From Methanosarcinaceae archaeon (GTDB lineage Archaea; Halobacteriota; Methanosarcinia; Methanosarcinales; Methanosarcinaceae): a stretch of DNA of 51,178 nucleotides. A program made the position numbers and the translations under genes. The DNA is taken from positions 1-51,178 of the forward strand of contig JAUWQD010000016.1 of the NCBI GenBank assembly GCA_030611265.1, written 5' to 3'. Shown in pieces: positions 1,220-51,024 of this stretch. The notes under the pieces were generated by a model. It saw only the letters and a list, made by a program, of their open reading frames with translations. It ran no database searches and was not told where the DNA came from. Every line of letters begins with the position of its first letter. Position 1 is the stretch's first letter.

Positions 1220-2929
1220 ATGAACGACGCTAAACAAGAATTCGGACTACAATCGAAGCAGTTCGGTGCACTACTAATTATTGACCACTTTCTTGAGCGA
1301 CTGAAACTCTCTAATCTTCTAAAGAACGCAATCAACTGTAGTGATAACAGCCATAAAATAGATCCATATGAGTGCCTCCTCCTCATGGTGATGAATTTAA
1401 TCGATGGGCGAAAGCCATTATATGAAATCAAAGAGTGGACTGCCGAATTCGCACCGCAAATTCTTCCTATAGGAGCCAACCAAATAGAGCATCTGAATGA
1501 TGATAGAATCGGACGAAATCTTGACAAATTATTCGATGCGGATCGAGCATCGCTCCAGACGAATATCGTACTCCAAGCAATCAAAGAATTTGGGATCAAT
1601 GTGGACGAGTTACACAACGACTCTACTACTATTACATTCACAGGGAAGTACAAAGATGCAAATGGAGATACCAAGCGTGGAAAGAAAACCATATTTATGA
1701 CAAATGGCCATAATAAAGATCATAGACCTGATCTGAAGCAAATATTATGGATACTTACAGTAACAGCTGATGGGGCCATACCAATACGATATGAAGCATG
1801 TGACGGGAATATAACTGATGATACCACACATGTTGAAACATGGAATACACTTTGTAAATTATTGGGACGGAGTGATTTCATATATATCGCAGACAGCAAG
1901 CTCTGTGTAAAAGATACATTGAAACATATTGCTGGAAATGATGGCTTTTTCATTACGATTTTACCTGCTACCAGAAAAGAGGAGCAAGACTTCAGGGATT
2001 ATGTCGTCACTAATAAAATAGAATGGCACGAAAAATGGGAGAAAGAAAAATCACGTTCTACTCAGAAATGGAAGATTCTTGAAAAATGGCGAATTGTCGA
2101 ATCCCACCTTCCATCAGCTGAAGGATTTCGTATTATTTGGGTTTGGAACTCAACCAAAGAGAAATGCGATCAGGAAAGTCGCTATAACTTGATTAAGAAG
2201 GCTCACAAACTATTCGAACAAATGGAGGAACGCCTACAAAACAAAAGGTCCCGCATACGAACACGAGAGGGGGTGGTCAAAGCTGCTGATAAAATAATCA
2301 CAGACACTGGCACGGGTCGCTGGGTGGACTATAGTATCAATGAGGATACTGAAAGGATAATTCGTCAAGTAGGTAAAGGTCGACCAGGCCTTAACACCAG
2401 TTATGTTTCTGAAACAAAAGTCCATTTTCATGTTTCTTGTAATATCGATAGTAACCTTGTCAAACATGACACCCATAGCGATGGAATGTTTCCACTAATA
2501 ACGAATTGTAAAGATATTAGCTGTAGAACTGTACTTGAAAAGTATAAGTATCAACCTCAATTGGAAAAGCGTCATGAACAGTTAAAAACAGTATACAATA
2601 TCACTCCCATCTGGTTGAACAGTATTACTCGTATCGAAGCCTTCTTGTTTTTGTATTTTGTGGCTCTATTGGTCCAGTCCATTATCGAGCGGGCTGTTCG
2701 ACAGAGTATGGAAAAGAATGGTTTAGAGAGCATCCCCATCTACCCTGAATCGAGGGAATGTCGTTACCCGACAACGGATCGAATTTTGGGTCTTTTTGAG
2801 AACGTTCACTACCATGACTTAATTAGAAATGGCACCATAGCCCAGACTTTTCAGCCTCAATTGAGCGAGATTCAACAGTTAGTTCTCAAATTATTGGATA
2901 TTCCTGTTGAGGTCTATAAGAAGATTTGA
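1220..2929 (+). CDS. DDE transposase, IS4 superfamily / IS1634-like
   Basis: 569-aa ORF. Size and motifs (HNDSTTITFTGKY, IYIADSKL) resemble IS1634-type transposases. Paralogous to the ORF at 2947..3882. Confidence 0.65.
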   Translation: MNDAKQEFGLQSKQFGALLIIDHFLERLKLSNLLKNAINCSDNSHKIDPYECLLLMVMNLIDGRKPLYEIKEWTAEFAPQILPIGANQIEHLNDDRIGRNLDKLFDADRASLQTNIVLQAIKEFGINVDELHNDSTTITFTGKYKDANGDTKRGKKTIFMTNGHNKDHRPDLKQILWILTVTADGAIPIRYEACDGNITDDTTHVETWNTLCKLLGRSDFIYIADSKLCVKDTLKHIAGNDGFFITILPATRKEEQDFRDYVVTNKIEWHEKWEKEKSRSTQKWKILEKWRIVESHLPSAEGFRIIWVWNSTKEKCDQESRYNLIKKAHKLFEQMEERLQNKRSRIRTREGVVKAADKIITDTGTGRWVDYSINEDTERIIRQVGKGRPGLNTSYVSETKVHFHVSCNIDSNLVKHDTHSDGMFPLITNCKDISCRTVLEKYKYQPQLEKRHEQLKTVYNITPIWLNSITRIEAFLFLYFVALLVQSIIERAVRQSMEKNGLESIPIYPESRECRYPTTDRILGLFENVHYHDLIRNGTIAQTFQPQLSEIQQLVLKLLDIPVEVYKKI

Positions 2930-2946: not shown

Positions 2947-3882
2947 TTAAATCGAAGATAAGACATTTGAGATGTGCGGAAAATAGGTTTTAATGTTGGT
3001 ATTAAATGTCTTTACCTGTCGTTTTTTAGTCGCTTTAGATTGAATCAATACCCATTTTTGTTCCATTCCACCATATGACGATGTCGTTTCATAATACGAG
3101 TATCGCTTATCTGTACAAAATTCTAATTCAACATCTGTATTCTGAAGATCTTTAACTTCATTTATTGTCGCAGGCGGTCTTGTGATCCAAAGAGTTTTTT
3201 TCCCTAACTCGGTGATGTTCTTATCACTGTAAATTGCACTATCAGCAATGTGGTACACTTTTTCATCCAATTCAAGACTATTCTGTATTTTCTTGACAGT
3301 TTTTACTAATGTTGTTTTATCAGGAGCATTTCCCGAAAGAGTTTCTACAAAAAGCGGTATACCTTCCTGATTACACACCATGCCCAGTACAAAACGTTTC
3401 AGATCCCATCGATAATCTTTAGGGTGGCCATAAGTAATCTCAATGGTATTGAGTTCAGGATCACGATTCTCGTAATTTCCATATAGGCTGAAATTGGTTG
3501 TGTCGTTGTGCAGAATATGGTTGTCAAGTGGAACGTTTTTCATAGCTTTGAGAACGATCTTGTTGAAAAGTTCAGTACAACCGTGTTCATATATTTTATC
3601 AAGTGTTCTTCCAAGAACGTCGTCGTTTATGTGTTCCGGGAGAATGCCTTCTCCCAATAATCGTTCTGTTGGGAGGTTTTCAAAATAGTCAGAATAAAGG
3701 TACAGGCGGCTTTCGTTGAAGCCTAAACCATTCAAACACATGGCTTTGATTACTGTGGAATGGGATAAATTGTATTTTCGACTTTTTGGGATGTTGGCAT
3801 CGATTACATCTGCAATATCAAGTTCGTCAAACGTTCCGCTAACTAATCCTAAATGTGATAGTGTTGTAGTTGTTATGTCCAT
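2947..3882 (-). pseudogene. truncated IS1634-like transposase (N-terminal 311 aa only)
   Basis: N-terminal region is homologous to the 1220..2929 product (HNDTTNFSLYGNY, IYHIADSAIY). The C-terminal half is missing. It ends 18 nt from the stop of the convergent intact transposase. Confidence 0.55.
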
Positions 3883-4280: not shown

Positions 4281-6518
4281 TCACAACTTTGCTCCGCACT
4301 CAAGGCAAAACTTTTCATTAACATCTACATCTCTGCCGCAGTTCGGACACTTCTTCACATCCGTACCTGTGCCAATATTTGATCGCTGTACAAGCGAATC
4401 CTTCACCTGCGTTCCGATGTTGTCACCATAGTGATAGAAGTTCTGCACGATACTGTCATTAATGTATCCTTTGACCTGCACGCGCTTTTCCAGTTCATCC
4501 AGTATTCCGTGATAAAATCCAGTCAGTGCATCCTCACGCTCTGCCCATGCTTTGAGTATGAGTTTTGATCTCTTTGCACCGCCAACGACCTCGATCTGCG
4601 CGGCGTATTTCAATTCCTTGACACCTTCGCCGTAGAAGCGCGCCACGCCGTTGAACATCTGAGGTGTAGACGTGACCTCAGGTTCGAGTATGAACATATT
4701 CATATCCTCGATGACTCTTGACACCAAGTTGAATAACGTCTCGCTTGGCATTGAAATATCCTGCGTGGTCTCCTCGGTTTTAACAAGGTGGTTGACTATG
4801 TTTCTCCATTCGGTTTTGTTTATCTCTTTGACCCTGAGAAGTGGACAGACTATACTGAGGGACTTTATTTCAAGGTCGGTCTCCTGACGTTTCTTGGTGC
4901 TGTAATCATAATAGTTTACCCTGCCGGAAACATTACATTCGCCGCATTCGCCGGTAGGTCTTATCTCAAAGGTAACTGTCTTGCTCTCACCCGGCTCAAG
5001 CATAGAGATGGTTTTTTCCTTATTTTCCAGAAGGAAAACGTCAGGTACGAACAGATGGATTTTAATGTCGCCGATTGGGTCAGAGGTTGGGTTTTTGATC
5101 TTGATCTTGTGGATGATCGTTGCGCCTTTGTAGCCGAAGGCGGATGATGTGTTAATTCTGCTTTCTTCTTTTGATTTAATTGTGTCTACGGGCGTTGTAC
5201 TTTTTGTAGGAGCTTTCGTGATTTTAGCTGTGGTTTGAGATACTGTTTTGCTGGATGAAGATGCAGATTTTTTTTTCTTTCTTGCTACAACTACAACCAG
5301 AAAGAGCAGCAACAAGAACAAAATTCCACAAGCGGCTAATAAAATTGGATCAGGGGAGAGATTTGCAGAAACCGATGCAGTCATACCTGAACTCACGGTT
5401 ACTGTTTTAGATAAGTCAGTATAACCTGATTTTGTTAATTTGATGGTATATGAACCAACCGGGATATTTTTTAGAGTTATAGGTGTAATCCCTTTGGATG
5501 TTCCATCGAGGTAAACATTTGTGCCGCTTGGATTTGAAGATATACTGATAGAACCAGTTTGTGCAGTCAATGTTGTAGAAACCGATGCAGTCTTACCTGA
5601 ACTCACTGTTACTGATTTCGAGATGTCAGTGTAACCAGATTTTGTTAATTTGACTGTATGCGAACCTATTGGAACATTGTGTAACGTTATCGGTGTAGTT
5701 CCTTTGGATGTGCCATCAAGGTAAACATTTGCACCACTTGGATTTGAAGATACACTGATGGAACCAGTCTGAGCAATTAGTGATTCTGAAAACGAAATTG
5801 TTTGTCCTGAAATTATAGTTACTGTTTTTAAAATGTCATTGTAACCTGACTTTGTTAATTTAACAGTGTGTGAACCAATTGGAATATCTATTAGGGTAGA
5901 TGATGTAATTCCCTTGGATGTTCCGTCGAAATAGATATTTGCACCACTTGGATTCGACATAATCGAAATCGATCCTTCTGCAATTGTTGGTCTTTTATCA
6001 ACATCATCACGTTTACCATCACCATCTGTATCAGGGTTGTTAGGATCGGTTTTCAAATCTTCAACTTCTACATAATAGGGCAAGTTGTCATGATCGTAAT
6101 CAGACACTTCTTCTACTGAATAACAACGACGCGTTTCAATTACAGTATCAAGTAATTCATTAGTAGCTGGCCATGTCCAATCTATATAGAGACGGTAATA
6201 GAATGTTCTTGGACCTGAGTCACCCATCGTTGATGTATATGCAACCTTTTTAGTTTCTCCAGCTTCGAGCAAAAACTCTATTGTATGAACCAGTCCAGAT
6301 GAACTTTTAACATCGACCTGATAATTAAGTGAATTTGTTCCAGTATTTTTTACTGTAACTTCATATGTTACAGTTTGTCCACTTACTAAAATGTCTGGTT
6401 TTGAATTTGCACTGATAATTTCACCGTCGTTTTTTGCGGCTACTGGAGTACAGAACAGTAAAACTATAATTAGACAAGCTATTAATAATAGCATCCATTT
6501 CGTTTTTATTTTTGCCAT
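4281..6518 (-). CDS. surface protein with signal peptide, CARDB-like and thrombospondin-3-like segments and 3 PEGA repeats; single TM; cytoplasmic CARDB-like plus unknown domain; C-terminal zinc ribbon
   Basis: Signal peptide MAKIKTKWMLLLIACLIIVLL. Three PEGA-like repeats of about 69 aa. TM helix followed by RKKKK. C-terminus ends HYGDNIGTQVKDSLVQRSNIG...CPNCGRDVDVNEKFCLECGAKL. Confidence 0.8.
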   Translation of the reverse strand: MAKIKTKWMLLLIACLIIVLLFCTPVAAKNDGEIISANSKPDILVSGQTVTYEVTVKNTGTNSLNYQVDVKSSSGLVHTIEFLLEAGETKKVAYTSTMGDSGPRTFYYRLYIDWTWPATNELLDTVIETRRCYSVEEVSDYDHDNLPYYVEVEDLKTDPNNPDTDGDGKRDDVDKRPTIAEGSISIMSNPSGANIYFDGTSKGITSSTLIDIPIGSHTVKLTKSGYNDILKTVTIISGQTISFSESLIAQTGSISVSSNPSGANVYLDGTSKGTTPITLHNVPIGSHTVKLTKSGYTDISKSVTVSSGKTASVSTTLTAQTGSISISSNPSGTNVYLDGTSKGITPITLKNIPVGSYTIKLTKSGYTDLSKTVTVSSGMTASVSANLSPDPILLAACGILFLLLLFLVVVVARKKKKSASSSSKTVSQTTAKITKAPTKSTTPVDTIKSKEESRINTSSAFGYKGATIIHKIKIKNPTSDPIGDIKIHLFVPDVFLLENKEKTISMLEPGESKTVTFEIRPTGECGECNVSGRVNYYDYSTKKRQETDLEIKSLSIVCPLLRVKEINKTEWRNIVNHLVKTEETTQDISMPSETLFNLVSRVIEDMNMFILEPEVTSTPQMFNGVARFYGEGVKELKYAAQIEVVGGAKRSKLILKAWAEREDALTGFYHGILDELEKRVQVKGYINDSIVQNFYHYGDNIGTQVKDSLVQRSNIGTGTDVKKCPNCGRDVDVNEKFCLECGAKL
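5348..5978. repeat. three tandem ~207-bp intragenic repeats encoding PEGA domains
   Basis: DNA-level near-repeats (e.g. aaccgatgcagtc(a/t)tacctgaactcac(g/t)gttactg...) encoding the SIS(V/I)SSNPSG(A/T)NVYLDGTSKG repeats. Confidence 0.6.
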
Positions 6519-6562
6519 GTAATCAAGTATTCAAATACAGTTATTAGATATTATAATTTACC

Positions 6563-7855
6563 TCAAACCTTCATCCCACACTCCCCACAAAACTTAGCCC
6601 CACTCCGAACCGTCGCCCCGCACTCAGCACACTTCACAACATCAGCAGACACCTTACCCTGCGCCGCTCCCATCATCCCGGCATCCAGTTCCTGCCGCCT
6701 GTATGAATCAGCACGCTCCCTGTCCTCCACATCCATCATGAACTGTACCTTATCTTCCTTAGCTCGTGCCTCAGCTTCCTTCATCTTTGCGAGGGCTTCG
6801 ATCTGCTCAGAAGACATGCCGCTAAGTTCACGACCCTGCACAATCGTGTTGGCAACATCCGCGCCGCCTGTTTCGGTAACCGATTTCAGATACTCCATGT
6901 CGCGTCCATGTTTTCGATCACTCATATCTTCATCAAGTTCCATCTCTGCACGTTTTGCGTCCGTCTTGGAATCTTTCCATGACTTGAATGTATCAATAGC
7001 CTGCCGTGCTTCTGCTGCATCCGCTTCGTTTTCGATAGCCGATCTTTCAGCCTCATGGCGCGCATCCTTTACCATCTCGGCGCGGTCATGTTCGCTCATC
7101 GCAGATTCGGGTGCAATGCCGCTTCTGACCTTTGCAACATCTTCACGCCCCATGCGTTCATGATCGCCTTCAGCGGCAAGAGTGTCTATTTCCTTAAGCT
7201 CCTCTTCATTCTGGAATTTATTTGTTGCATCCAAAACGGAAACATAGTCGCCAAGGTCCCACTGTGCTGTATATCGAAGCAGTTCAAGTCCCCACATGGA
7301 AAGCGTTGTCTTGAGTTGCATCTCAAGTTCATTCTCCATCTTAAGCTGGAGGTCACGGTTGCCGTAGATATTATCCATGGTCACTTGCTTAATTTCAGGT
7401 TCCAGTACCCGTGAGATCGTCTCGCTCTCAAGGCGGCCATATATATCCTGAATAGAAAGCACTCGCCCTCCCTTTTCATCGGGAGTTGTGTAAGCAAAAA
7501 GCATCTGGAAGAAACGCTTTGGGTCTTGCATCTTGAAACGCATAATTCCGCTGCATCCGACCTTCTGGTTGTCGGCTGTCCACAGGTCGGCATGTTCCCA
7601 ATCGAGATCCTTTGGGGATGTGTCCATTAGTGCAACATCCACATCCTTTGCTATGTTGCCCGGTTTGAGCAAACCGCCAACGCGCAGTTTTCCGCTATCG
7701 ATGATCTCTTGAACCACACCGTTTCTGATTATCGCAGCTTTTTCGTTTGGAGATAGTATCACTGATTTAAAAAATACTCCACTGACGTCTTTTTTAGAGA
7801 TTACTCTTGCAATATCATCAATTTGTTTCTTCCATTTGAATACCATATTTACCAC
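6563..7855 (-). CDS. SPFH/band-7 (flotillin-like) protein with charged coiled-coil region and C-terminal zinc ribbon
   Basis: N-terminal SPFH-like motifs (AAIIRNGVVQEI, TADNQKVGCSGIMRFKMQDPKRFF, SMWGLELLRY). Long E/R/K/A-rich helical region. Ends KCAECGATVRSGAKFCGECGMKV. Confidence 0.7.
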   Translation of the reverse strand: MVNMVFKWKKQIDDIARVISKKDVSGVFFKSVILSPNEKAAIIRNGVVQEIIDSGKLRVGGLLKPGNIAKDVDVALMDTSPKDLDWEHADLWTADNQKVGCSGIMRFKMQDPKRFFQMLFAYTTPDEKGGRVLSIQDIYGRLESETISRVLEPEIKQVTMDNIYGNRDLQLKMENELEMQLKTTLSMWGLELLRYTAQWDLGDYVSVLDATNKFQNEEELKEIDTLAAEGDHERMGREDVAKVRSGIAPESAMSEHDRAEMVKDARHEAERSAIENEADAAEARQAIDTFKSWKDSKTDAKRAEMELDEDMSDRKHGRDMEYLKSVTETGGADVANTIVQGRELSGMSSEQIEALAKMKEAEARAKEDKVQFMMDVEDRERADSYRRQELDAGMMGAAQGKVSADVVKCAECGATVRSGAKFCGECGMKV

Positions 7856-7938
7856 ATCCGAACACTTTTATATTTACATAACTAATAGTTTTGTTGCTGT
7901 TACAATATATTAGTAAGTATTATATATATTGTTTTCCA

Positions 7939-7968
7939 TTGTATACAATCGTAATACATATTATGTAT
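7939..7968. promoter_or_regulatory. palindromic candidate operator in divergent promoter region (TTGTATACAA and ATACATA-t-TATGTAT)
   Basis: Perfect 10-bp palindrome at 7939-7948 and a 7-bp inverted repeat at 7954-7968, in the 129-bp AT-rich intergenic region between divergent genes. Confidence 0.4.
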
Positions 7969-7984
7969 ATTCGGCGGAGATTAA

Positions 7985-8140
7985 ATGAAACGATCCTATG
8001 CAGTTAGTGCACGAGTATCAGAAGATAGTAAATTATACCTTGATAAGTTGGTTGAGAGAGGGATAGCGATCAACAAATCTGAAGCATTGAAATTATGTAT
8101 AAGGTATGCCAAGCAAATGAAAATGGAGGAGGAGATATAA
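7985..8140 (+). CDS. small ribbon-helix-helix (CopG/Arc-like) DNA-binding protein
   Basis: 51-aa ORF MKRSYAVSARVSEDSKLYLDKLVERGIAINKSEALKLCIRYAKQMKMEEEI. N-terminal beta-strand then two helices, as in RHH proteins. Stop abuts the ATG of the next gene. Not in the ORF track because it is under 60 aa. Confidence 0.5.
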   Translation: MKRSYAVSARVSEDSKLYLDKLVERGIAINKSEALKLCIRYAKQMKMEEEI

Positions 8141-8704
8141 ATGGGACTAAGTAATCCATTCAAAAAAGTTTCACCGGATGAAATGAAGACAAAACTTTCT
8201 ATGTCCGAGCAGAGATTATCCACACGCGAGAGGGAACTTGATAAAAAACGCCAAAAAGCACGCGATCAGGCAAAGGAAGCGCTTGCAAACGGAAATGACC
8301 GCGAGTTTCGGGTCGCATCCCGCAGGCATTCTATGGTCGAGGGGCAGGTTAATACAATCAGCAGCATGGTTGAAATGGCGCAGTCCATGTCAGATGTTAT
8401 TGAGATGCAGAGCGGACTCAAAGAGGTTGTTGATATTGGAAATGACCTTGGCAAGTGGCAAAAACAACTCGGATTTGACACAAGCAAGTTAGAGGGCGCA
8501 GTTACCAACATCCGCACTTCGATGGAAAAAGTGAATACCGCAACCAACATGATGACCAGTTCAATGGATGCAGCCATGGGCGGCGGAACTGAACTCAGCG
8601 ACATGCAGGATTCCCTCAGGAGTGAACTGCTTGCAGAGCTTAGCAGTGACACAGTATCTGATGACAAGTTGTCAAAAAAGATCGAAGAAGAGATGGAAGA
8701 GTGA
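8141..8704 (+). CDS. ESCRT-III / Snf7-family (CHMP2-like) protein
   Basis: 187 aa. Aligns along its length with CHMP2A-type ESCRT-III (FKKVSPDEMKTKL...ERELDKKRQKARDQAKEALANGNDREFRVASRR...SSMDAAMGGG). C-terminal amphipathic acidic helix DMQDSLRSELLAELS is MIM1-like. GGAGG ribosome-binding site upstream. Confidence 0.75.
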   Translation: MGLSNPFKKVSPDEMKTKLSMSEQRLSTRERELDKKRQKARDQAKEALANGNDREFRVASRRHSMVEGQVNTISSMVEMAQSMSDVIEMQSGLKEVVDIGNDLGKWQKQLGFDTSKLEGAVTNIRTSMEKVNTATNMMTSSMDAAMGGGTELSDMQDSLRSELLAELSSDTVSDDKLSKKIEEEMEE

Positions 8705-8901
8705 ATTAGTGTTTTGGATGATTTGATTCATCCAATACTCTGCGGTTAATTAAAAAAAAATTGATCACTGGAATTTTGTCAATTTTCTTTGTGTCTTTCT
8801 TTGTTCTCTGTGTTTTTTCGAAAAGTTCACGACATAATAAAAATAAATTTGAATTCCAGCAATGATATTATGATTACTGTAGTAGATTAATGAGGAATCC
8901 C

Positions 8902-10077
8902 ATGCCATCAGCAACAACCCTTGCCGCACAAGCACGCGGGTATGCAAAAGCTGCCAGAACATTGGAAGATGAGAACAATCTCAAAAATGCCCGTGAACTC
9001 TACCTCAAGGCAGCCAAGTTATACAATGATGCATCCAAGATCTCAACCGATAAGACTGATACCAACACCCAGCGCGACCTTGCTGAGCATCTTCTCAACA
9101 AAGCACAATCGCTTAAACGTACCAGTGTCCACCAGTCAGGCTCTGGTGTGAGCAGTAGAGATGGTGGTGGAGGCAGTGAAACGGACGAGTCTTCACTGTC
9201 AAAGGACGACCTGATCTTAAAAGAGATCCCGAACATAGGGTTCGATGATATTGGCGGTCTTGAATCTGTGAAAGAGGAGATCAAAAAAGCGATCATCTAC
9301 CCGTTCACCCACAAAGACCTGTATAAGATGTATGGACAGAAAGCAGGCGAGGGAATTCTCCTCTACGGTCCACCGGGATGCGGCAAGACGATGATGGCAA
9401 AGGCTGCTGCAAAGGAATGCGGCGCGGATTTCATTAGCGTCAAGACAAGCAGCATTGTGAGTAAGTGGGTCGGTGCGTCCGAGAAGAACGTCAAACAGGT
9501 GTTTGAGACCGCACGCCAGTCCGAAAAAAGCATTGTCTTTTTCGATGAGATAGATTCCATTGCCGGACGGCGCAGTGAGAGTGAGGACTACGCCAAGCGC
9601 GTGGTAAACGAACTCCTCGCCCAGATGGACGGCGTTGATACAGCCGATGACGAACTCCTGATACTTGCAGCAACCAACGAGCCGTGGGCAATTGACCCTG
9701 CACTCCGCCGCCCCGGGAGGTTTAGTAAACTTGTGTACATTCCCGAACCTGATCTCGATGCCCGCGCTGCGATCTTCAAGATTAATATGAAAGGGCGCCC
9801 GATTGCTGATGATGTTAACGTGAACCGACTTGCCGAGATCACAGAATCCTATTCCGGTGCGGACATTTCCGCTATCTGCAAAGAGGCGGCGGATATCCCC
9901 CTTGGTGAGGCACTTCGCGGTGGCGAGGCTCGGAAGATCGAGGAGCGAGATTTTGTTAAGGTGCTGAAAGGGAGGAAGCCTTCAATTTTGAGCTGGTATG
10001 TTGAGGCTCGGAAGGAGGTTAAGAAGAGTGGGGAAGAAGCTGTGTTTGATGGGATTGTTAAAAGCAGGGTTGATTAG
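8902..10077 (+). CDS. Vps4/CdvC-like MIT-domain AAA+ ATPase
   Basis: N-terminal roughly 75-aa three-helix MIT-like region. Linker, then AAA domain with Walker A GPPGCGKT, Walker B VFFDEID and ATNEPWAIDPALRRPGRF. Start taken at the ATG at 8902 (GAGGA ribosome-binding site 5 nt upstream) rather than 8890. Confidence 0.8.
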   Translation: MPSATTLAAQARGYAKAARTLEDENNLKNARELYLKAAKLYNDASKISTDKTDTNTQRDLAEHLLNKAQSLKRTSVHQSGSGVSSRDGGGGSETDESSLSKDDLILKEIPNIGFDDIGGLESVKEEIKKAIIYPFTHKDLYKMYGQKAGEGILLYGPPGCGKTMMAKAAAKECGADFISVKTSSIVSKWVGASEKNVKQVFETARQSEKSIVFFDEIDSIAGRRSESEDYAKRVVNELLAQMDGVDTADDELLILAATNEPWAIDPALRRPGRFSKLVYIPEPDLDARAAIFKINMKGRPIADDVNVNRLAEITESYSGADISAICKEAADIPLGEALRGGEARKIEERDFVKVLKGRKPSILSWYVEARKEVKKSGEEAVFDGIVKSRVD

Positions 10078-10080
10078 AAG

Positions 10081-12531
10081 ATGGGAATTGATGTAAAAAA
10101 ATCGAAATCCGAAGAAAATTTGGGTATTGGTTTAAGCACTGGAGCAATTGTAGGATTTATTATTGGTTTTATTGTAAGAACAATTGCTTTTAAAATATCA
10201 GTTGGATTAATTGTAGGATTAATTTGTAGTATAATTGCTAGTAATATTAGTGTTGATAGAAAAAATAGTCCACTATACGGTTTGGTTTTTGGTTCAATAA
10301 TTGGCGCCGTTTTGGGTTTATTTTTTGGATTGATTTTAGGATCAGTTTTTGATGTCATATATAATTTCAATTCAATAGTGTTTACTAATCTAATTTTAGG
10401 AGGGATTGTTGGCGGATATACAATCTTTAAAATATTTTACGACGCTAAAAAAAGAACAATTGAATATGAAAATGAAATTAGTGACAATATTGACATAAAT
10501 ATTGACTCTCAAAATCCATTTATACTTGGTGTCAATAATTCATTTGAAATAACAGTAAATAATGGAACTGAAATCCCAATTACAAATATTAGTCTAATAT
10601 CAAATTTTCCAAATTCCTTGATTTGCAATGAAACTCTTAAACCAATAGACATAGTTCCTGCGAAATCATCAGAATCAAAAACTCTTTTATTAACTCCAAC
10701 AGTTGCTGAAGAAATCGATTTGGGCAACCTTGCAGTGACACTTGAAATTGACGGTTATACTTATGAAAAAGAACCTGTTAAAATCGGTATTTTTGATGTG
10801 ATTCCACCTGAAATTAACATTCAAATAAATGTCCCCAATCAACTTAAAGTCGGAATAGAAAATCCAGTTAAAATTACAGTGAAAAATCAATCGGATGTAC
10901 TTCTATCCAATGTTCAAATTGAAACCAACTTTTCAAGACTAATAACATGTGATGAAACTATAGTGCACACTGATGATATCCCTGCAAATTCATCTGAATA
11001 CACAGCCATATTCATAACTCCAAGAATTGCTGATAAAATTGATTTGGGCAACCTCAATTTATCATTTGACATTAATGAAACCACATACAAAAAAGAACCA
11101 ATCGCAATGGGAATTTATGAAGCAGTAGAAGTAACATCACATAAACCCACAAAATATTCAGATGACATCAATTCAGACCTTTCGATATCCCGCGAAACCG
11201 AATTCTATCAAGGTTTTATCCGCTTCAAAATGTCTGTCACCAACACTTCATCCTTTGTAGTGAACGATGTTGCTCTCGATTTTGATTATGATCACAACTT
11301 ATTGCGAATTGATAGACGTGAACCTGATTACCAGATCAAAAATGGTAGAACAATATTTGGAAACATCTCATCCAATTCATCAAAAACGATTGCAGTCTAC
11401 TTTGACCCAATGATGTGTTCTAAAAGTGCAGATATCAACTGTCAGGTAAATTACAAGGATGCAAAAGGACAACCTCAAACTACACACATGGAGCCAAAAA
11501 AGATCAGTGTTGTTTGTCCGATAATGGAAACTGAATCTGATATAAACATCGGACGGCTCAAAGAGTTTATTGAAAAACTGTCATATCGGGACAGTAAAGT
11601 GTACCAAATTCAGAATAGTTTTGATATTGATGTGCTAAAAAACATTTCCCGGGAAATTGTGCAAAAGCATGATGTTAAGCATATACGGACGCTTTTCACT
11701 AAAGATGGAAACACATGCGAAATATGGTATTATGGCAAGACAAAAGTGCATAGCCATGATATTGTCATAAAAATTACAATTTTAAGTGAAACACAAAACA
11801 TTGAACTTTTTGCTGCAACTCAAACCGTGGAATCACTGGCCGGACTTCTGGCAGAGGTTGGGCGTGAGTTGAAAGGTGCGATTGAAAGTAAGGTTACTGG
11901 CAATGTCCAGCAGGTAATCAATGTTTCAATCAAGGATTCAATTATCCAGCGAAGTAATCTTTTGAGTTATTGTGATATTAACGGTAATTGCAGTGGTGAT
12001 GTTGTAATTGAAGATAGTTTTGTGCAGCGTTCGGATGTAGGCACTGTTAAATCTGAAAATGAAGACGGAGTAAAAGATATGGATAAATCTAAAGTACACG
12101 AATATTTAGTTAGTATCGTAAAAGATGGATCAAATATTGAAGATATCAAGATCGAATACGGCCAAGTTATAGAGTATTTTAATCTTGATGAGAAAAAAGC
12201 TATTTTCCCATTGCTTACCATACTTGATGAAATTTGTAGCGAAAATCATCACAAAAATGAGCCCTTTTTATCTGCGATTGTAGTAAGTCAAAGCAAAAAA
12301 GGACTTGTACGCATTCCTGGACCAGGTTTTTTTAAAAAATGGATGGTACCACCATATAGAGATTATGATGGTCCGTCCGATGGTCCAGAAGCCCACAAAA
12401 TCCACGAACAAGAACTTGAACGTGTGTTTAACTACTGGCACAACGACAATAAAAACTCATGCCCTGCATGCGGTGAGATCGTGCCGGATGGTGCGAAGTT
12501 CTGCATGGAATGCGGTACAAAAATTGAATAA
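10081..12531 (+). CDS. polytopic membrane protein with glycine-zipper TM helices, two ~110-aa Ig-like repeats, CARDB-like plus unknown domain, C-terminal zinc ribbon
   Basis: Four predicted TM helices rich in GxxxG. Tandem repeats (ITVNNGTEIPITNISLISNF... / ITVKNQSDVLLSNVQIETNF...). The module VNYKD...ISVVCPIM is homologous to the cytoplasmic module of the 4281..6518 product. Ends CPACGEIVPDGAKFCMECGTKIE. Confidence 0.8.
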   Translation: MGIDVKKSKSEENLGIGLSTGAIVGFIIGFIVRTIAFKISVGLIVGLICSIIASNISVDRKNSPLYGLVFGSIIGAVLGLFFGLILGSVFDVIYNFNSIVFTNLILGGIVGGYTIFKIFYDAKKRTIEYENEISDNIDINIDSQNPFILGVNNSFEITVNNGTEIPITNISLISNFPNSLICNETLKPIDIVPAKSSESKTLLLTPTVAEEIDLGNLAVTLEIDGYTYEKEPVKIGIFDVIPPEINIQINVPNQLKVGIENPVKITVKNQSDVLLSNVQIETNFSRLITCDETIVHTDDIPANSSEYTAIFITPRIADKIDLGNLNLSFDINETTYKKEPIAMGIYEAVEVTSHKPTKYSDDINSDLSISRETEFYQGFIRFKMSVTNTSSFVVNDVALDFDYDHNLLRIDRREPDYQIKNGRTIFGNISSNSSKTIAVYFDPMMCSKSADINCQVNYKDAKGQPQTTHMEPKKISVVCPIMETESDINIGRLKEFIEKLSYRDSKVYQIQNSFDIDVLKNISREIVQKHDVKHIRTLFTKDGNTCEIWYYGKTKVHSHDIVIKITILSETQNIELFAATQTVESLAGLLAEVGRELKGAIESKVTGNVQQVINVSIKDSIIQRSNLLSYCDINGNCSGDVVIEDSFVQRSDVGTVKSENEDGVKDMDKSKVHEYLVSIVKDGSNIEDIKIEYGQVIEYFNLDEKKAIFPLLTILDEICSENHHKNEPFLSAIVVSQSKKGLVRIPGPGFFKKWMVPPYRDYDGPSDGPEAHKIHEQELERVFNYWHNDNKNSCPACGEIVPDGAKFCMECGTKIE

Positions 12532-12567
12532 TACAACGATTTATCAACGACAGTGGTGAGTGAAAAT

Positions 12568-13422
12568 ATGGCATATACCAACCAATCAAAAGTCAATAAA
12601 GACTTAAATGAGTTCTTGCGTGAACTGAGCAGTGGAAGTTACAGAACACGTACAAGCGCCGCAATAAATATGTCAGTACTTGCTAAAAAAGGTGTTTACC
12701 ATAATAATGCTATCCAACCACTTGTCGATTTGTTGTCTGATAAGTATAAATCGGTGCGAAAGCAGGCGGCTTTTGCACTTGGAGATATTGCAGAATGTGG
12801 AGTTTGGGACAAAAATGCGATAATACCATTAAAGGAACTATTATCTGACAAAGATCATGAAGTGCGATGGAGTGCGACTTTTGCACTAAGGACACTTGCT
12901 AAAAATGATATTTTTGAACGCAACGCAATACAATGCTTTGAAAAATTATTGTTTGACAGATATCACCGTGTACGCTATAATGCTGCATTTGCACTTGGTG
13001 CTCTTGCAGAGCATGAAATTTGTTCTAAGTCTACACTATACCCTTTAATCACTTTATTAGCTGACCGCAACAGTATGGTACGTAGAAGTGCTGCTTTTTC
13101 AATTGGTTGTCTTGCAAATAATGATATCTTTGATTGTGTTGCCGTCAAACCATTGACTTATTTGCTGTCAGATAAGAATCATGTTGTCCGCAAAAATGCT
13201 GCACAGGCACTTACAGTGCTGAACGAGAAGGGTGCAGGCAGGGTCAATGAAAAGAATATGGTGCAACACATTCACTACGGAGATAACATTGGTACGCAGG
13301 TAAAAGATAGTTTTGTCTATAAATCCAGCATTAATGATGCTGCCAAAACGTGTCCTTCATGCGGACGCGAAGTTGGAGAGGATGAGCAATTTTGTACGGA
13401 ATGCGGGGAGAGATTAATATGA
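12568..13422 (+). CDS. HEAT-repeat (PBS-lyase-like) protein with C-terminal zinc ribbon
   Basis: Six repeats of the type PLxxLLSDKxxxVRxxAAFALGxxA. Ends HYGDNIGTQVKDSFVYKSSI...CPSCGREVGEDEQFCTECGERLI. Start taken at the ATG at 12568 with a GGTGA ribosome-binding site. Confidence 0.75.
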   Translation: MAYTNQSKVNKDLNEFLRELSSGSYRTRTSAAINMSVLAKKGVYHNNAIQPLVDLLSDKYKSVRKQAAFALGDIAECGVWDKNAIIPLKELLSDKDHEVRWSATFALRTLAKNDIFERNAIQCFEKLLFDRYHRVRYNAAFALGALAEHEICSKSTLYPLITLLADRNSMVRRSAAFSIGCLANNDIFDCVAVKPLTYLLSDKNHVVRKNAAQALTVLNEKGAGRVNEKNMVQHIHYGDNIGTQVKDSFVYKSSINDAAKTCPSCGREVGEDEQFCTECGERLI

Positions 13423-14603
13423 CCGACAACGAAACCGACCCAACGACCCTCCAGCAAACAAACCGCCAGACCGCAATCAACAACCTGCGAGATACGCATG
13501 CTGCAATTGAAAGACTGATGAATAAAACCTATCAGCAGCAGGATGTAACTGCAAGTTCAGCACTCCGCCAGATCAGGACAAAGGTAACTGCGCTGCTTTC
13601 AGACATGGAGAACATAGATCTCGATACATTCAGCGGACGGGAGGGGACACTGGATGAGTTCTACAACAATGAGGGACGTTTCATCGAAAGCTCAACCGGA
13701 CTGCTAATAACAGCCGAAGATGCTTTGGAGTCAAGCGAATCAGTCGATACATATTCAATCGAAAGTTCAGTCGATTCACTGGAGAAGAACTTCAACAACC
13801 GTATCGTCATCACAAAAAAGCATTTACAAGAAGATGAAAAACGACAAACAGAATCCCAGTCCCGGAAAGAAACGCCGGACAAGGAACTGGGCAGCAGCGC
13901 GCCGGATGCAGAACCAAAAACCGAATCGCCCGCGTGGCTTGATGATACAACTAAAGATTACGCATCATTAATACCAAAACTCTACAACTATATCAACACC
14001 CTTGAACAAAAATACACTCACTGTCAGCCTGAAGTTTCAAACAACGGTGATTATCTTGGAAACAAGACATGGAAAGTCGATCTCCTTGATTACGGTATTC
14101 GCGGCACAGTCAAAGATGGGGCATTCAAAATACCGCTTGTTTTTGAAACATGCTGGTACCCATTAAACAGTGTGCTGGAAGCCGCACAGTTTGTGCAGTC
14201 GCAGGCGAATGCGGTTGGCAAAAGCCAGTACAAGAGCCTGTGTCTTATCAACGATGTATGGAACAATGAAATCAAGGAGTGGGCTAAAGATTTTGTTCAT
14301 CAGCGCATGTCGCTGTTCTTGTATGAACTGGAAAATGACACGCTCACCTATAAAGACAAATCAGAAATCACAGAACGGTTCGAGTTCTGGCATTCCAATA
14401 CTATATTTAAAGCACCTATTGAAGAGGAGATGAAAATTCTTATCGAGAAAATGGAATATCTCACGGTAAATGATGTCATGGGAATGTTTGGGTTCAATAC
14501 AAAAGGAGCAGAGGCGTATCTCTATGACCTGATGAAAAAAGGAGAGATCCTTGACGTTGGGCTTGACAGTCCAAAATATACGAAGGTTAAACATCGTGAA
14601 TAG
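13419..14603 (+). CDS. hypothetical protein: coiled-coil N-terminus, acidic disordered middle, C-terminal winged-helix-like region
   Basis: 395-aa product. ATGA overlap with the upstream gene stop implies translational coupling. The C-terminal roughly 55 aa have a helix-turn-helix plus wing pattern. Confidence 0.6.
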   Translation: MTDNETDPTTLQQTNRQTAINNLRDTHAAIERLMNKTYQQQDVTASSALRQIRTKVTALLSDMENIDLDTFSGREGTLDEFYNNEGRFIESSTGLLITAEDALESSESVDTYSIESSVDSLEKNFNNRIVITKKHLQEDEKRQTESQSRKETPDKELGSSAPDAEPKTESPAWLDDTTKDYASLIPKLYNYINTLEQKYTHCQPEVSNNGDYLGNKTWKVDLLDYGIRGTVKDGAFKIPLVFETCWYPLNSVLEAAQFVQSQANAVGKSQYKSLCLINDVWNNEIKEWAKDFVHQRMSLFLYELENDTLTYKDKSEITERFEFWHSNTIFKAPIEEEMKILIEKMEYLTVNDVMGMFGFNTKGAEAYLYDLMKKGEILDVGLDSPKYTKVKHRE

Positions 14604-14681: not shown

Positions 14682-14972
14682 ATGTCCCTCACTGTTAATA
14701 TCAAAAATGAATTTTCCATACAGGAAGTAAGCGAAGTAATACACTCAGCATTAGCATTATATGAGCAGATCACAAAACACAAAAAAGGAAAATATGCAAA
14801 TATTTGCAGTGGTTTTGAAACTAAATATGGGATGAGTTCAGACATTTTCATGGAAAAATTTGAAATCGGTCAATTAGATGACCGTGATGATTTTTTTGAT
14901 TGGCATGCATCCAAAAAAGGACTTGATAACTGGAGTGAAAAGTTACAAATTTTATCAGGGATTAGCACATGA
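14682..14972 (+). CDS. hypothetical small protein
   Basis: 96-aa ORF downstream of the cluster. No recognisable motifs. Confidence 0.4.
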   Translation: MSLTVNIKNEFSIQEVSEVIHSALALYEQITKHKKGKYANICSGFETKYGMSSDIFMEKFEIGQLDDRDDFFDWHASKKGLDNWSEKLQILSGIST

Positions 14973-15173: not shown

Positions 15174-15842
15174 ATCAAGATACTTGCCATTTCTGACGCT
15201 CATGGAGACTATTCCAAAGTTGGACCTACCTTAAAACTGAAGCAGGTCAACGACATTGACTTGATCCTTATAGCAGGTGATATCACAGACTTCGGTCCGG
15301 ATGAATATGCAAAAAAGTTGTTAAACATGTTTAAAACACCCATAATGGCAATACCCGGAAACTGTGATCCAAAAACCATGCTCAAGGTACTGGACAATTC
15401 AAAAGCCATCAACCTTCACAACACATCCGAACACATCGGCAATATCACATTCATCGGTCTTGGAGGCTCGAATCCGACACCATTCGACACACCATTTGAA
15501 TTACAGGAAGATGAGATCGAAAGTAATCTTGAAAAATTGATCACGGAAGCGGAAAATGATCCAGACAACAGCACGATCGTACTGCTAACCCATGCGCCGC
15601 CATTTGGCACCGTTGACGAGATACCAATTGGACATGTCGGAAGCACTGCCATTGAGAAGTTTTTAGGTAGAGTTGACCTGATTGTCTGCGGGCACATTCA
15701 TGAAGCAAGAGGCATAATGAAAGTTGGCAAAACCGTTGTCGTAAATCCGGGAATGGTCTCTGAAGGTAATGGGGCAATAATAACCATAGCCGATGCAGGC
15801 AATGGAAACGTACAGATGAATGCTGAACTGATAAAAGCGTAA
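15174..15842 (+). CDS. calcineurin-like metallophosphoesterase, apparently lacking a canonical start codon
   Basis: Motif I ILAISDAHGD and motif II LIAGDITD lie upstream of the first in-frame ATG, GTG or TTG (the TTG at 15261). The position where M is expected in MKILAISD reads ATC at 15174. An AGGATGTGA ribosome-binding-like sequence is upstream. Confidence 0.55.
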   Translation: MKILAISDAHGDYSKVGPTLKLKQVNDIDLILIAGDITDFGPDEYAKKLLNMFKTPIMAIPGNCDPKTMLKVLDNSKAINLHNTSEHIGNITFIGLGGSNPTPFDTPFELQEDEIESNLEKLITEAENDPDNSTIVLLTHAPPFGTVDEIPIGHVGSTAIEKFLGRVDLIVCGHIHEARGIMKVGKTVVVNPGMVSEGNGAIITIADAGNGNVQMNAELIKA

Positions 15843-45313: not shown

Positions 45314-45336
45314 TAATTAGACGGTGGTTCTGGCTT

Positions 45337-51022: not shown

Positions 51023-51024
51023 AT

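What the first reader, a model, noticed from the sequence alone, without database searches (positions are those of the whole stretch)
4281..13422. Four unrelated proteins in the cluster share a near-identical C-terminal zinc-ribbon tail, and two share an identical 13-residue pre-ribbon linker
The C-termini are as follows.

- PEGA surface protein: ...KCPNCGRDVDVNEKFCLECGAKL.
- SPFH protein: ...KCAECGATVRSGAKFCGECGMKV.
- Polytopic membrane protein: ...CPACGEIVPDGAKFCMECGTKIE.
- HEAT protein: ...CPSCGREVGEDEQFCTECGERLI.

All four fit CPxCG-x(7-9)-KFCxECG at the extreme C-terminus, and all are predicted cytoplasmic. The PEGA and HEAT proteins also share the exact peptide HYGDNIGTQVKDS, with about 80% DNA identity over that stretch, immediately upstream. 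The membrane protein carries two degenerate copies of the following (I/V)(K/E)DS(I/F)(I/V)QRS(N/D) element. A common tail grafted onto an extracellular-domain protein, a flotillin-like scaffold, a multi-TM protein and a HEAT solenoid suggests a shared docking tag. Candidate partners are the ESCRT-III polymer, the Vps4 MIT domain or the unknown 13419-14603 protein.
Basis: seen in the sequence. Interest (0 to 1): 0.8.

Follow-up and report, generated by a model that had tools for sequence, protein, structure and literature searches.

The report
Shared zinc-ribbon tails in archaeal ESCRT cluster
Four proteins in a known archaeal membrane-remodelling (ESCRT) gene cluster really do end in the same kind of small zinc-binding tail, which is confined to this cluster across about 40 related genomes, so it is probably a docking handle, though its binding partner is still unknown.

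Summary
Four ORFs end in a CxxC-x10-CxxC zinc ribbon (Pfam PF13240), and these are the only such tails in the 51 kb window. In 42 related loci the tail sits on 90 of 199 core-cluster ORFs and on 0 of 433 flanking ORFs.

Two claims are overstated. The ribbons are only 44-61% identical, close to the generic Pfam consensus. Two of the four proteins are paralogues that share an adaptin-appendage domain.

The cluster is the published 'Meth_adaptin' ESCRT system (Makarova 2024). That paper noted zinc ribbons on two components but did not describe a shared tail.

New here:
- A strongly conserved pre-ribbon motif (TxVKDShhQRSNIG) that AlphaFold predicts to be disordered.
- The motif belongs to the appendage family even where no ribbon follows.
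- Motif plus ribbon behave as a portable cassette, also found on a HEAT protein and on other non-appendage proteins.
- The identical 13-residue peptide differs at 10 of 39 bases, all synonymous, which indicates selection and not recent copying.

Best reading: flexibly tethered docking modules that bring the SPFH scaffold, receptor-like appendage proteins and accessory proteins together at the ESCRT-III/Vps4 site. The partner could not be tested.

The parts
4281..6518 (-). 745-aa receptor-like protein: signal peptide, CARDB and three PEGA ectodomains, TM helix (aa 385-417), cytoplasmic adaptin-appendage domain (about aa 455-680), disordered conserved motif, zinc ribbon
   Evidence: Pfam PEGA 5.5e-56, CARDB, Zn_Ribbon_1. 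AF2 model of aa 447-745 has mean pLDDT 87.6. Foldseek top hits are COPI gamma and AP2 alpha/beta2 appendages, E 6e-11.
4374..4433 (-). Pre-ribbon motif of the PEGA protein, HYGDNIGTQVKDSLVQRSNI (aa 696-715)
   Evidence: D and S are invariant, and T, S, Q, R are at least 90% conserved, in 31 orthologues. pLDDT is below 50 in two AF2 models.
4284..4349 (-). C-terminal zinc ribbon of the PEGA protein, CPNCGRDVDVNEKFCLECGAKL (aa 724-745)
   Evidence: PF13240 27.8 bits. Ribbon pLDDT is 91-93.
6563..7855 (-). 430-aa soluble SPFH/Band-7 protein with coiled coil and C-terminal zinc ribbon (arCOG15283 type)
   Evidence: Band_7 1.3e-8 and Zn_Ribbon_1 26.1 bits. 50% identical to the M. zhilinae SPFH component. 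No hydrophobic segment.
6566..6631 (-). C-terminal zinc ribbon of the SPFH protein, CAECGATVRSGAKFCGECGMKV (aa 409-430)
   Evidence: Four Cys kept in 72 of 75 orthologues.
8141..8704 (+). ESCRT-III (Snf7-like) protein, 187 aa, no ribbon
   Evidence: Snf7 Pfam hit below cut-off (21.1 bits). 76% identical to the M. zhilinae ESCRT-III.
8890..10077 (+). Vps4-like AAA ATPase with N-terminal MIT-like helices, 395 aa, no ribbon
   Evidence: AAA 4.6e-45. MIT covers the full profile but is below cut-off, E 0.0034. 66% identical to M. zhilinae Vps4.
10081..12531 (+). 816-aa polytopic membrane protein: N-terminal TM helices, Ig-like repeats, adaptin-appendage region (aa 349-660), two motif copies, an extra unassigned domain of about 140 aa, zinc ribbon
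   Evidence: 52% identical over aa 349-660 to WP_013898571, the published appendage component. Homologous to the PEGA cytoplasmic part, E 2e-9. Zn_Ribbon_1 30.7 bits.
11923..12039 (+). Two copies of the motif in the membrane protein: VSIKDSIIQRSNL (aa 615-627) and VVIEDSFVQRSDV (aa 641-653)
   Evidence: The same two-copy arrangement occurs in the M. zhilinae appendage proteins.
12460..12528 (+). C-terminal zinc ribbon of the membrane protein, CPACGEIVPDGAKFCMECGTKIE (aa 794-816)
12553..13422 (+). 289-aa soluble HEAT-repeat protein carrying the motif-plus-ribbon cassette
   Evidence: HEAT 5.9e-32, Adaptin_N 49.2 bits (cut-off 37), Zn_Ribbon_1 28.1 bits. Present only in the window and in L001 among 42 loci.
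13273..13332 (+). Pre-ribbon motif of the HEAT protein, HYGDNIGTQVKDSFVYKSSI (aa 241-260)
   Evidence: Nearly the same tail sits on the appendage paralogue P0227.
13351..13419 (+). C-terminal zinc ribbon of the HEAT protein, CPSCGREVGEDEQFCTECGERLI (aa 267-289)
13392..14603 (+).
   Evidence: [quoted passage not shown]

Best explanation
The region is a member of the 'Meth_adaptin' archaeal ESCRT system: ESCRT-III, Vps4, an SPFH scaffold, adaptin-appendage receptor-like proteins and a coiled-coil/winged-helix protein.

Four of its seven proteins end in a small C4 zinc ribbon of the generic PF13240 type. In three of the four the ribbon follows a strongly conserved but intrinsically disordered motif, TxVKDShhQRSNIG.

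The tails have three origins:
- An ancient SPFH-ribbon fusion, kept from Methanosarcinaceae to Methanoperedens.
- Common descent of an appendage-motif-ribbon unit in the PEGA and polytopic membrane proteins.
- Transfer of a motif-plus-ribbon cassette from an appendage paralogue onto the HEAT protein.

Proposed mechanism (inferred, not shown): each tail is a weak docking module held on a flexible tether. Together the tails bring soluble components (the SPFH scaffold and the HEAT protein) and membrane-embedded receptor-like appendage proteins into one assembly where ESCRT-III and Vps4 act. The ribbon would supply a generic protein-protein contact, as the ArnA ribbon does on ArnB. The disordered motif would supply the system-specific contact, for example by adding a beta-strand to the winged-helix protein or by binding an appendage domain in trans.
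For: Identity of the system:
- Orthology to the published M. zhilinae locus: Vps4 66%, ESCRT-III 76%, SPFH 50%, coiled-coil/wH 32%, appendage protein 52% (paper).
- The appendage fold was tested directly. AF2 gave pLDDT 87.6. Foldseek top 15 hits are COPI and AP2 appendages.

Enrichment:
- Ribbon tails are on SPFH 36/39, the appendage (PEGA-like) family 38/39, the membrane family 13/32 and HEAT 3/3.
- They are absent from Vps4 (0/29), ESCRT-III (0/27), coiled-coil/wH (0/30) and 433 flanking ORFs in 223 families. Fisher p is 2e-53 by ORF and 3e-7 by family.

Selection:
- 72 of 75 SPFH orthologues keep the four Cys.
- The 13 identical residues carry 10 synonymous DNA differences.
- Motif D and S are invariant across 31 orthologues.

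Disorder plus conservation:
- The motif has pLDDT below 50 in two models, while the ribbon reaches 80-93.

The motif belongs to the appendage family:
- It is present after the appendage domain in M. zhilinae proteins that continue into TM+GOLD or TM+ProX and have no ribbon.

The cassette is mobile:
- It occurs on P0324, P0330, P0337, P0342 and HEAT, all without an appendage domain.
- P0227 carries a tail almost identical to the HEAT tail.
- P0342 sits in a cluster with five consecutive tailed genes.

Precedents:
- The ArnA CxxC-x10-CxxC ribbon on a disordered linker docks on ArnB in a co-crystal.
- The B. subtilis PspA operon pairs an SPFH protein bearing a C-terminal ribbon with a membrane protein bearing two ribbons. 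The soluble SPFH protein needs the operon's two membrane proteins (YdjG, which carries the ribbons, and YdjH) to reach the membrane.
Against: - No interaction was tested or predicted, so the partner is unknown.
- The ribbon is a ubiquitous fold found in bacteria and archaea without ESCRT.
- Its shared residues are the fold-determining ones. The variable residues are family-specific, and there is no same-genome co-variation between families. A single common binding site is therefore not indicated.
- In M. zhilinae only the SPFH protein keeps a PF13240 ribbon, so ribbons on the appendage proteins are dispensable for the system.
- The background rate comes from locus flanks that are partly syntenic, not from whole genomes.
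- The loci were found through the SPFH protein, so its tail counts are not independent of the search.
Confidence: 0.5

Rival explanations
1. The ribbons are generic, independently useful end-caps, for example for stability, zinc or redox sensing, or lipid or nucleic-acid contact. They have no shared partner, and their co-occurrence reflects common ancestry and local domain shuffling only.
For: - The ribbon matches the generic PF13240 consensus and occurs widely in unrelated bacteria and archaea.
- Two of the four proteins are paralogues.
- Ribbon surfaces are family-specific, with no same-locus co-variation.
- The M. zhilinae appendage proteins lack it.
Against: - 0 of 433 flanking ORFs carry it, against four of seven core families.
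- It is retained in SPFH over 50% sequence divergence.
- The cassette was repeatedly acquired by non-homologous proteins that sit in the same cluster.
- The same ESCRT-III/SPFH/ribbon association occurs in Firmicutes.
Confidence: 0.2
2. The functional docking element is the disordered motif TxVKDShhQRSNIG, a short linear motif recognised by a folded domain of the system (an appendage ear in trans, or the winged helix). The ribbon is only an accessory cap that some lineages replace with a TM segment or an acidic D(V/I)DWE tail.
For: - The motif is conserved and disordered.
- It is present in all appendage-family proteins, with or without a ribbon.
- 15 of 147 homologues end right at the motif and 6 end in D(V/I)DWE instead of a ribbon.
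- Eukaryotic appendage domains are solved in complex with short linear peptides; many such complexes are among the top fold hits.
Against: - SPFH carries the ribbon without the motif in all orthologues.
- In the window membrane protein the ribbon is separated from the motif by an extra domain yet is retained.
- No binding test was done.
Confidence: 0.2
3. The tails are handles or degrons for the Vps4 AAA ATPase, marking these proteins as substrates to be extracted or recycled rather than as assembly partners.
For: - All tails are at the extreme C-terminus on flexible linkers, next to a Vps4 gene.
- Vps4-type unfoldases engage unstructured termini (general knowledge of AAA+ mechanism).
Against: - Methanoperedens-type loci keep several tailed proteins without an adjacent Vps4 gene (L028, L029, L044).
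- A folded zinc ribbon is a poor threading start.
- There is no direct evidence.
Confidence: 0.07

Closest known systems
'Meth_adaptin' ESCRT system of Methanosarcinales (Makarova et al. 2024, mBio, PMC10936438), type locus in Methanosalsum zhilinae
   Same: - Same core genes: Vps4, ESCRT-III, SPFH with coiled coil and zinc ribbon, adaptin-appendage proteins (arCOG15284) and a coiled-coil/wH protein.
- Orthology is 32-76% identity.
- The paper already notes a zinc ribbon on the SPFH protein and on one appendage protein.
   Different: - The window has PEGA/CARDB ectodomains instead of GOLD or ProX.
- It has an extra HEAT-ribbon gene.
- It has PF13240 ribbons on four proteins, whereas in M. zhilinae only SPFH has that type. 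The 'Zn-ribbon' of WP_013898571 is a different Cys/His-rich C-terminus.
- In the parts of the paper read here, there is no mention of the shared tail cassette or the conserved disordered motif.
Bacillus subtilis pspA-ydjGHI operon (PMC11237479, PMC8581546)
   Same: - An ESCRT-III-superfamily protein (PspA) is encoded with a soluble SPFH protein that has a C-terminal zinc ribbon and with a membrane protein that carries two zinc ribbons.
- The SPFH protein depends on the membrane partners for localisation.
   Different: - It is bacterial, with no Vps4, no appendage domain and no pre-ribbon motif.
- The ribbons of YdjG are N-terminal.
- The role of the ribbons there has not been mapped.
- Sequence relationship to the window proteins was not tested.
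ArnA zinc-ribbon domain of Sulfolobus acidocaldarius (PMC12852372)
   Same: - A terminal CxxC-x10-CxxC ribbon on a disordered linker.
- Shown by co-crystal to dock weakly (about 500-570 square angstroms) on a partner protein.
- The tail profile hits ArnA at E 0.019.
   Different: - The ribbon is N-terminal and the protein belongs to an FHA/vWA signalling pair unrelated to ESCRT.
- It is classed as RanBP2-type, whereas the window ribbons do not hit the RanBP2 Pfam model.
Zinc-binding modules of eukaryotic and Asgard ESCRT (Vps36 NZF fingers, Asgard Znr_CC_PH_SB and triple-ribbon-PH proteins)
   Same: Small zinc ribbons serve as, or are proposed to be, connectors between ESCRT sub-complexes. The Asgard ribbon proteins are listed in the ESCRT neighbourhoods of PMC10936438. 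The role of Vps36 NZF is from general knowledge.
   Different: - The NZF signature (W before the first Cys, N, and the TF ubiquitin-binding pair) is absent.
- No ubiquitin system is present in the cluster.
- Homology beyond the ribbon fold is not shown.
Eukaryotic adaptin/COPI appendage ('ear') domains and their linear-motif ligands
   Same: - The cytoplasmic domain of the PEGA protein has the two-subdomain appendage fold.
- It is followed by a conserved disordered motif, recalling ear and linear-motif networks.
   Different: - Here the motif is in cis, C-terminal to the ear.
- Its sequence is unrelated to FxDxF, DPW or WxxF.
- No binding has been shown.

Membership tests
Pfam PF13240 Zn_Ribbon_1 | HMM score at or above the gathering cut-off (25 bits) | tested here: met
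   27.8, 26.1, 30.7 and 28.1 bits for the four proteins
Pfam PF13240 Zn_Ribbon_1 | Four Cys in two CxxC knuckles about 10 residues apart | tested here: met
   CxxC-x10-CxxC in all four. 61 of 66 ribbon-tailed homologues have the same spacing.
Meth_adaptin ESCRT system (Makarova 2024) | Vps4 ATPase of that clade, with a MIT domain | tested here: met
   AAA 4.6e-45. 66% identity to M. zhilinae Vps4. The MIT hit covers the full profile but is below cut-off (17.9 vs 30 bits). No phylogeny was made.
Meth_adaptin ESCRT system (Makarova 2024) | ESCRT-III gene upstream of Vps4 | tested here: met
   8141-8704. 76% identical to the M. zhilinae ESCRT-III. The Snf7 Pfam hit is below cut-off.
Meth_adaptin ESCRT system (Makarova 2024) | Two proteins with an adaptin-appendage region (Ig-like plus platform) | tested here: met
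   Membrane protein is 52% identical to WP_013898571. PEGA protein AF2 model matches COPI/AP2 appendages at E 6e-11.
Meth_adaptin ESCRT system (Makarova 2024) | SPFH protein with coiled coil and zinc ribbon | tested here: met
   Band_7 plus Zn_Ribbon_1. 50% identical to WP_013898576.
Meth_adaptin ESCRT system (Makarova 2024) | GOLD domain and ProX protein in the locus | tested here: not met
   No GOLD or OpuAC hit in the cluster proteins. The ectodomain is PEGA/CARDB instead. A periplasmic-binding-protein-like ORF at 40003-40911 lies 26 kb away next to apparent ABC-transporter genes (not scanned with Pfam). These parts also vary among the 42 loci, so they look accessory.
RanBP2/NZF-type zinc finger | W-x-C-x2-C-x3-N-x6-C-x2-C signature, or a hit to Pfam zf-RanBP | tested here: not met
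   The spacing matches, but there is no W or N at the signature positions and no zf-RanBP hit at E up to 0.1.
YdjI-type SPFH-ribbon proteins of PspA operons | Sequence orthology to B. subtilis YdjI | not tested
   Only the architecture was compared, from the literature.
Shared docking tag (functional class) | Direct binding of the tail to a common partner | not testable with these tools
No multimer prediction or binding assay was available.

The most novel reading that the evidence does not exclude
The motif-plus-ribbon cassette is a portable assembly signal of an archaeal coat-like system. Any protein that acquires it (HEAT solenoid, polytopic membrane protein, ectodomain receptor) would be recruited into an adaptin-ear/SPFH/ESCRT-III assembly. 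The disordered TxVKDShhQRSNIG motif would be read by an ear or winged-helix domain. That would mean ear and linear-motif recruitment networks, and possibly a split adaptin (a HEAT 'trunk' and an appendage 'ear' as separate proteins joined through the same tail), existed in archaea outside Asgard.
Probability: 0.15. Interest if true: 0.8.

Novelty: new variant of a known kind. Interest (0 to 1): 0.5.

Why it matters
How the components of the euryarchaeal adaptin-like ESCRT systems find each other is unknown. The describing paper says their interactions remain to be elucidated.

A tail that is restricted to the cluster, under selection and portable gives a concrete handle: a module of about 50 residues that can be deleted, mutated or used as bait. 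If the tail or its motif binds a specific component, it would define the wiring of a system proposed to resemble the ancestral archaeal protein-sorting machinery.

If it binds nothing, the result is still useful. It would show that the ribbon is a generic cap and that the disordered motif deserves the attention.

Tried and rejected
- Word-indexed protein searches with the 66-aa tail and with a tail profile returned only proteins of 114 aa or fewer, many of them gene fragments or generic multi-ribbon proteins. They did not show the range of architectures. The exhaustive search with the 299-aa cytoplasmic region did.
- The exact look-up of the HEAT protein found nothing, so the source genome is not in that collection.
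Co-folding the tail with ESCRT-III, Vps4-MIT or the coiled-coil/wH protein was therefore impossible.
- The top hits of the PDB profile search were C2H2 finger linkers (QRTHTGEKPYKCPECGK). This is a spurious resemblance to QRSNIGxGxxKCPxCG.
- Recent gene conversion as the source of the identical 13-mer was rejected: 10 of 39 bases differ, all synonymous.
- Concerted evolution of tails within a genome was rejected: same-locus ribbon identity (0.44, 0.43, 0.36) is not higher than different-locus identity (0.43, 0.42, 0.40).
- Classification as NZF/RanBP2 was rejected because the signature residues are absent.
- Context look-ups for P0324, P0330, P0337, P0260 and P0263 gave contigs of 1.2-5 kb, too short to judge.
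- The P0088 locus is probably a gene fragment next to a different SPFH protein with several ribbons. It is only weakly informative.

Full report

- 4281-6518(-), 745 aa.
- 6563-7855(-), 430 aa.
- 10081-12531(+), 816 aa.
- 12553-13422(+), 289 aa.

Each ends in CxxC-x10-CxxC-G-x-K/R followed by 1-3 residues. Each scores above the Pfam gathering cut-off for PF13240 Zn_Ribbon_1.

A six-frame scan of the whole window found no other C-terminal ribbon in a real ORF. The only other CxxC...CxxC matches lie inside a Trm1-like ORF, inside a ferredoxin-type ORF, or in short spurious frames.

The peptide HYGDNIGTQVKDS is identical in the PEGA and HEAT proteins. The membrane protein has two copies of the following element.

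Three details need correction:
- The ribbons are not near-identical. They share 8-11 of 18 residues, and these are the positions of the generic Pfam consensus.
- DNA identity over the 13-mer is 29/39 (74%), and all ten differences are synonymous. This is the signature of purifying selection on an old duplication, not of a recent copy.
- The PEGA and membrane proteins are not unrelated. Their cytoplasmic parts align over 249 residues at E 2e-9.

**2. What the cluster is**

The literature search led to Makarova et al. 2024 (PMC10936438). That paper describes a 'Meth_adaptin' ESCRT system with these parts:
- Vps4 and ESCRT-III.
- An SPFH protein with coiled coil and zinc ribbon.
- Two adaptin-appendage proteins (arCOG15284), one of them with a zinc ribbon.
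- A coiled-coil/winged-helix protein.
- ProX.

I fetched the type locus from Methanosalsum zhilinae (L042) and compared it directly:

| Component | Identity to M. zhilinae |
|---|---|
| Vps4 | 66% |
| ESCRT-III | 76% |
| SPFH | 50% |
| Coiled-coil/wH protein | 32% |
| WP_013898571 vs membrane protein aa 349-660 | 52% |

I also tested the fold of the PEGA protein's cytoplasmic part. An AF2 model built on 61 homologues has mean pLDDT 87.6. Its best PDB matches are COPI gamma/beta and AP2 alpha/beta2 appendage domains, at E down to 6e-11.

The window therefore holds a member of a known system. Its accessory parts differ: PEGA/CARDB ectodomains instead of GOLD or ProX, and an added HEAT-repeat gene.

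The closest relatives are uncultured Methanosarcinaceae. SPFH is 86-91% identical to theirs, and L001 comes from isolate HMMV2.

**3. Is the tail enriched near ESCRT-III/Vps4?**

A scan of one genome per species with an SPFH alignment returned 41 loci from these groups:
- Methanolobus.
- Methanococcoides.
- Methanomethylovorans.
- Methanoperedens.
- Unclassified Methanosarcinales.

I called ORFs in these loci and assigned them to the window's families by BLASTP. The counts also include the window itself, 42 sources in all.

| Family | ORFs with ribbon tail |
|---|---|
| SPFH | 36 of 39 |
| PEGA-like appendage family | 38 of 39 |
| Membrane/appendage family | 13 of 32 |
| HEAT | 3 of 3 |
| Vps4 | 0 of 29 |
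| ESCRT-III | 0 of 27 |
| Coiled-coil/wH | 0 of 30 |
| Flanking ORFs (223 families) | 0 of 433 |

Fisher p is 2e-53 by ORF and 3e-7 by family. Thirty-five of the 42 sources carry two to four tailed genes.

Two caveats apply. The loci were found through the SPFH protein, so its own counts are not independent. The flanks are partly syntenic. The counts for the other three families are independent of the search.

Among 75 SPFH orthologues at 50-91% identity, 72 keep the four Cys. Of the other three, at least two are truncated or incomplete sequences.

The ribbon fold itself is not ESCRT-specific. The tail profile also finds generic ribbon proteins in Lachnospiraceae, Gammaproteobacteria, Anaerolineae and Promethearchaeota. 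Within these genomes, however, the tail is sharply enriched.

**4. Anatomy of the tail**

Alignments show a larger conserved unit in the appendage family:
- The last helix of the platform subdomain (LTGFYHxILDEIEKR).
- Then IVQxxxHxGDxIGTQVKDShhQRSNIG.
- Then K/R-K-CPxCG...KFCxxCGxKL.

D and the second S of the motif are invariant in 31 orthologues, and T, S, Q and R are at least 90% conserved.

Both AF2 models place this stretch at pLDDT 33-49. The ribbon reaches 80-93 and the appendage about 96. A segment this conserved yet predicted disordered is what a short linear binding motif looks like.

The motif does not depend on the ribbon. In M. zhilinae it follows the appendage domain, in one or two copies, in the proteins that continue into TM+GOLD or TM+ProX. 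It also occurs in WP_013898571, whose C-terminal zinc-binding region is of a different Cys/His-rich kind.

An exhaustive search with the 299-residue cytoplasmic region found 655 cluster representatives. Of the best 147:
- 66 end in a ribbon, 61 of them with x10 spacing.
- 15 end right at the motif.
- 6 end in an acidic D(V/I)DWE tail.

**5. Is the tail grafted?**

Yes, in part.
- The HEAT gene occurs only in the window and in L001. Its DSFVYKSSIN...CPSCGREVGEDEQFCTECGERLI tail is almost the same as the tail of an appendage paralogue, P0227, and close to the L039 and L002 paralogues.
- The cassette also sits on proteins with no appendage domain: P0324 (polytopic membrane protein), P0330 (N-terminal ribbon plus helical region), P0342 (extracellular repeats plus TM) and P0337.
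- P0342 lies directly after an SPFH-ribbon gene and an ESCRT-III gene. It is followed by three more tailed appendage proteins and then a coiled-coil/wH gene, so five consecutive genes carry the tail.
- The other look-ups hit contigs too short to judge.
- The SPFH ribbon has no motif and follows a Gly/Ala-rich linker after the coiled coil. It is an older, separate fusion.

**6. One shared binding surface?**

Ribbon consensus sequences are family-specific:
- SPFH: VRKCPGCGsTVPaEASFCsQCGkKL.
- Appendage family: KrkCPxCGREvexxEKFCxxCGxKL.
- Membrane family: aNfCPSCGsKvxxGANFCxECGTKi.

Within-family identity is 0.53-0.68 and between-family identity is 0.39-0.43. Only HEAT versus the appendage family is higher (0.56), as expected for a transfer. 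Ribbons from the same genome are not more alike than ribbons from different genomes.

The residues shared across families are the Cys, the Gly after each knuckle and the aromatic residue before the third Cys. These are fold-determining residues. This does not exclude a common partner, but it gives no positive sign of one identical interface.

**7. Mechanism**

What is shown:
- The tails are cytoplasmic, flexibly tethered, selected, restricted to the cluster and portable.

What is inferred:
- They act as weak docking modules that gather the components.

Two precedents support the inference:
- The Sulfolobus ArnA ribbon has the same CxxC-x10-CxxC spacing and sits on a disordered linker. It docks on ArnB in a co-crystal with a small, weak interface (PMC12852372). 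The tail profile hits ArnA at E 0.019.
- In Firmicutes, the ESCRT-III relative PspA is encoded with an SPFH protein that has a C-terminal ribbon and with a membrane protein that has two ribbons (PMC11237479). That soluble SPFH protein needs the membrane partners to reach the membrane (PMC8581546).

The window has the same logic. Two components are soluble (SPFH and HEAT) and two are membrane-embedded, and all four carry tails.

Candidate readers of the motif are the winged helix of the 13392-14603 protein or an appendage domain in trans. The winged-helix idea rests on analogy with the CdvA peptide that completes the CdvB winged helix, which I recall and did not test here.

**8. Novelty and verdict**

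The system is known, and zinc ribbons on two of its components are mentioned in print.

What appears new, at least relative to the text and supplements I could read:
- The tail recurs on up to five proteins per locus and nowhere in the flanks.
- A conserved disordered motif precedes it and marks the whole appendage family.
- Motif plus ribbon form a mobile cassette.

This is a modest but concrete advance that turns the question of how the parts connect into a testable one. I rate it a new variant of a known kind, with interest 0.5.

Noticed in passing
window 1220-2929 (+) and 2947-3882 (-): Two transposase-like ORFs with DUF4277 N-termini (569 aa and a shorter 311 aa) lie about 400 bp from the 3' end of the PEGA gene. 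The cluster border on this side coincides with insertion-sequence remnants.
   Followed up: partly
window 12031-12459 (+), membrane protein aa about 651-793: An extra domain of about 140 aa sits between the motif repeats and the ribbon and has no Pfam hit. It includes the sequence ...EPFLSAIVVSQSKKGLVRIPGPGFFKKW.... The same domain ends P0226, P0245 and L023_6. In L023_6 the ribbon comes before it rather than after.
   Followed up: partly
window about 43800-51178: A low-GC stretch (0.31-0.34, against about 0.42 elsewhere) holds unknown ORFs, a TPR protein (46644-48089) and an AAA_14/DUF4143 ATPase (49745-51022). It is possibly an integrated element or defence island.
   Followed up: no
P0252, P0260, P0266, P0269, P0276, P0297 (homologues): More distant appendage-family proteins keep the DSVVQRS motif but end in an acidic D(V/I)DWE/D tail instead of a ribbon. 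Several others (P0260, P0263, P0287, P0282, P0306, P0326) carry two or three ribbons in the N-terminal part instead.
   Followed up: partly
L044 2081-14417: A metagenomic Methanoperedens-like locus has ESCRT-III, then five consecutive genes ending in the ribbon tail: SPFH, an ectodomain protein without appendage, and three appendage proteins (one with NHL repeats, one with PEGA domains). A coiled-coil/wH gene follows. No Vps4 gene lies within the stretch shown.
   Followed up: yes
L039 (same MAG as L001): Three or four PEGA/appendage paralogues with ribbon tails lie in tandem next to an SPFH fragment. This shows local expansion of the tailed family.
   Followed up: no
L042 5249-6658 (M. zhilinae WP_013898571): The 'Zn-ribbon' cited in the paper for this protein is a different Cys/His-rich C-terminus (CNPNCPCW...CPICNH...HYKAKH), not the PF13240 type. 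Its two DSxxQ(R/H)(S/T) motif copies are intact.
   Followed up: partly
window 12553-13422 (+): The HEAT protein passes the Pfam cut-off for Adaptin_N (49.2 bits, cut-off 37), alongside stronger generic HEAT hits. An adaptin-trunk-like protein and appendage proteins in one operon sharing a tail is suggestive. It may only reflect generic HEAT-repeat similarity.
   Followed up: no
window 14682-14972 (+) and 15261-15842 (+): A 96-aa ORF with no family hit and a calcineurin-like metallophosphoesterase follow the coiled-coil/wH gene. The 96-aa ORF had no BLASTP match in the other loci; the phosphoesterase was not used as a query. A link to the two invariant Ser residues of the motif was not examined.
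   Followed up: no
L029_20 (256 aa): This is the only flanking ORF with a strict PF13240-like ribbon. The ribbon is N-terminal (CPNCGNQMSDNAKFCVECG at aa 8), and the ORF lies a few genes from the Methanoperedens cluster.
   Followed up: no
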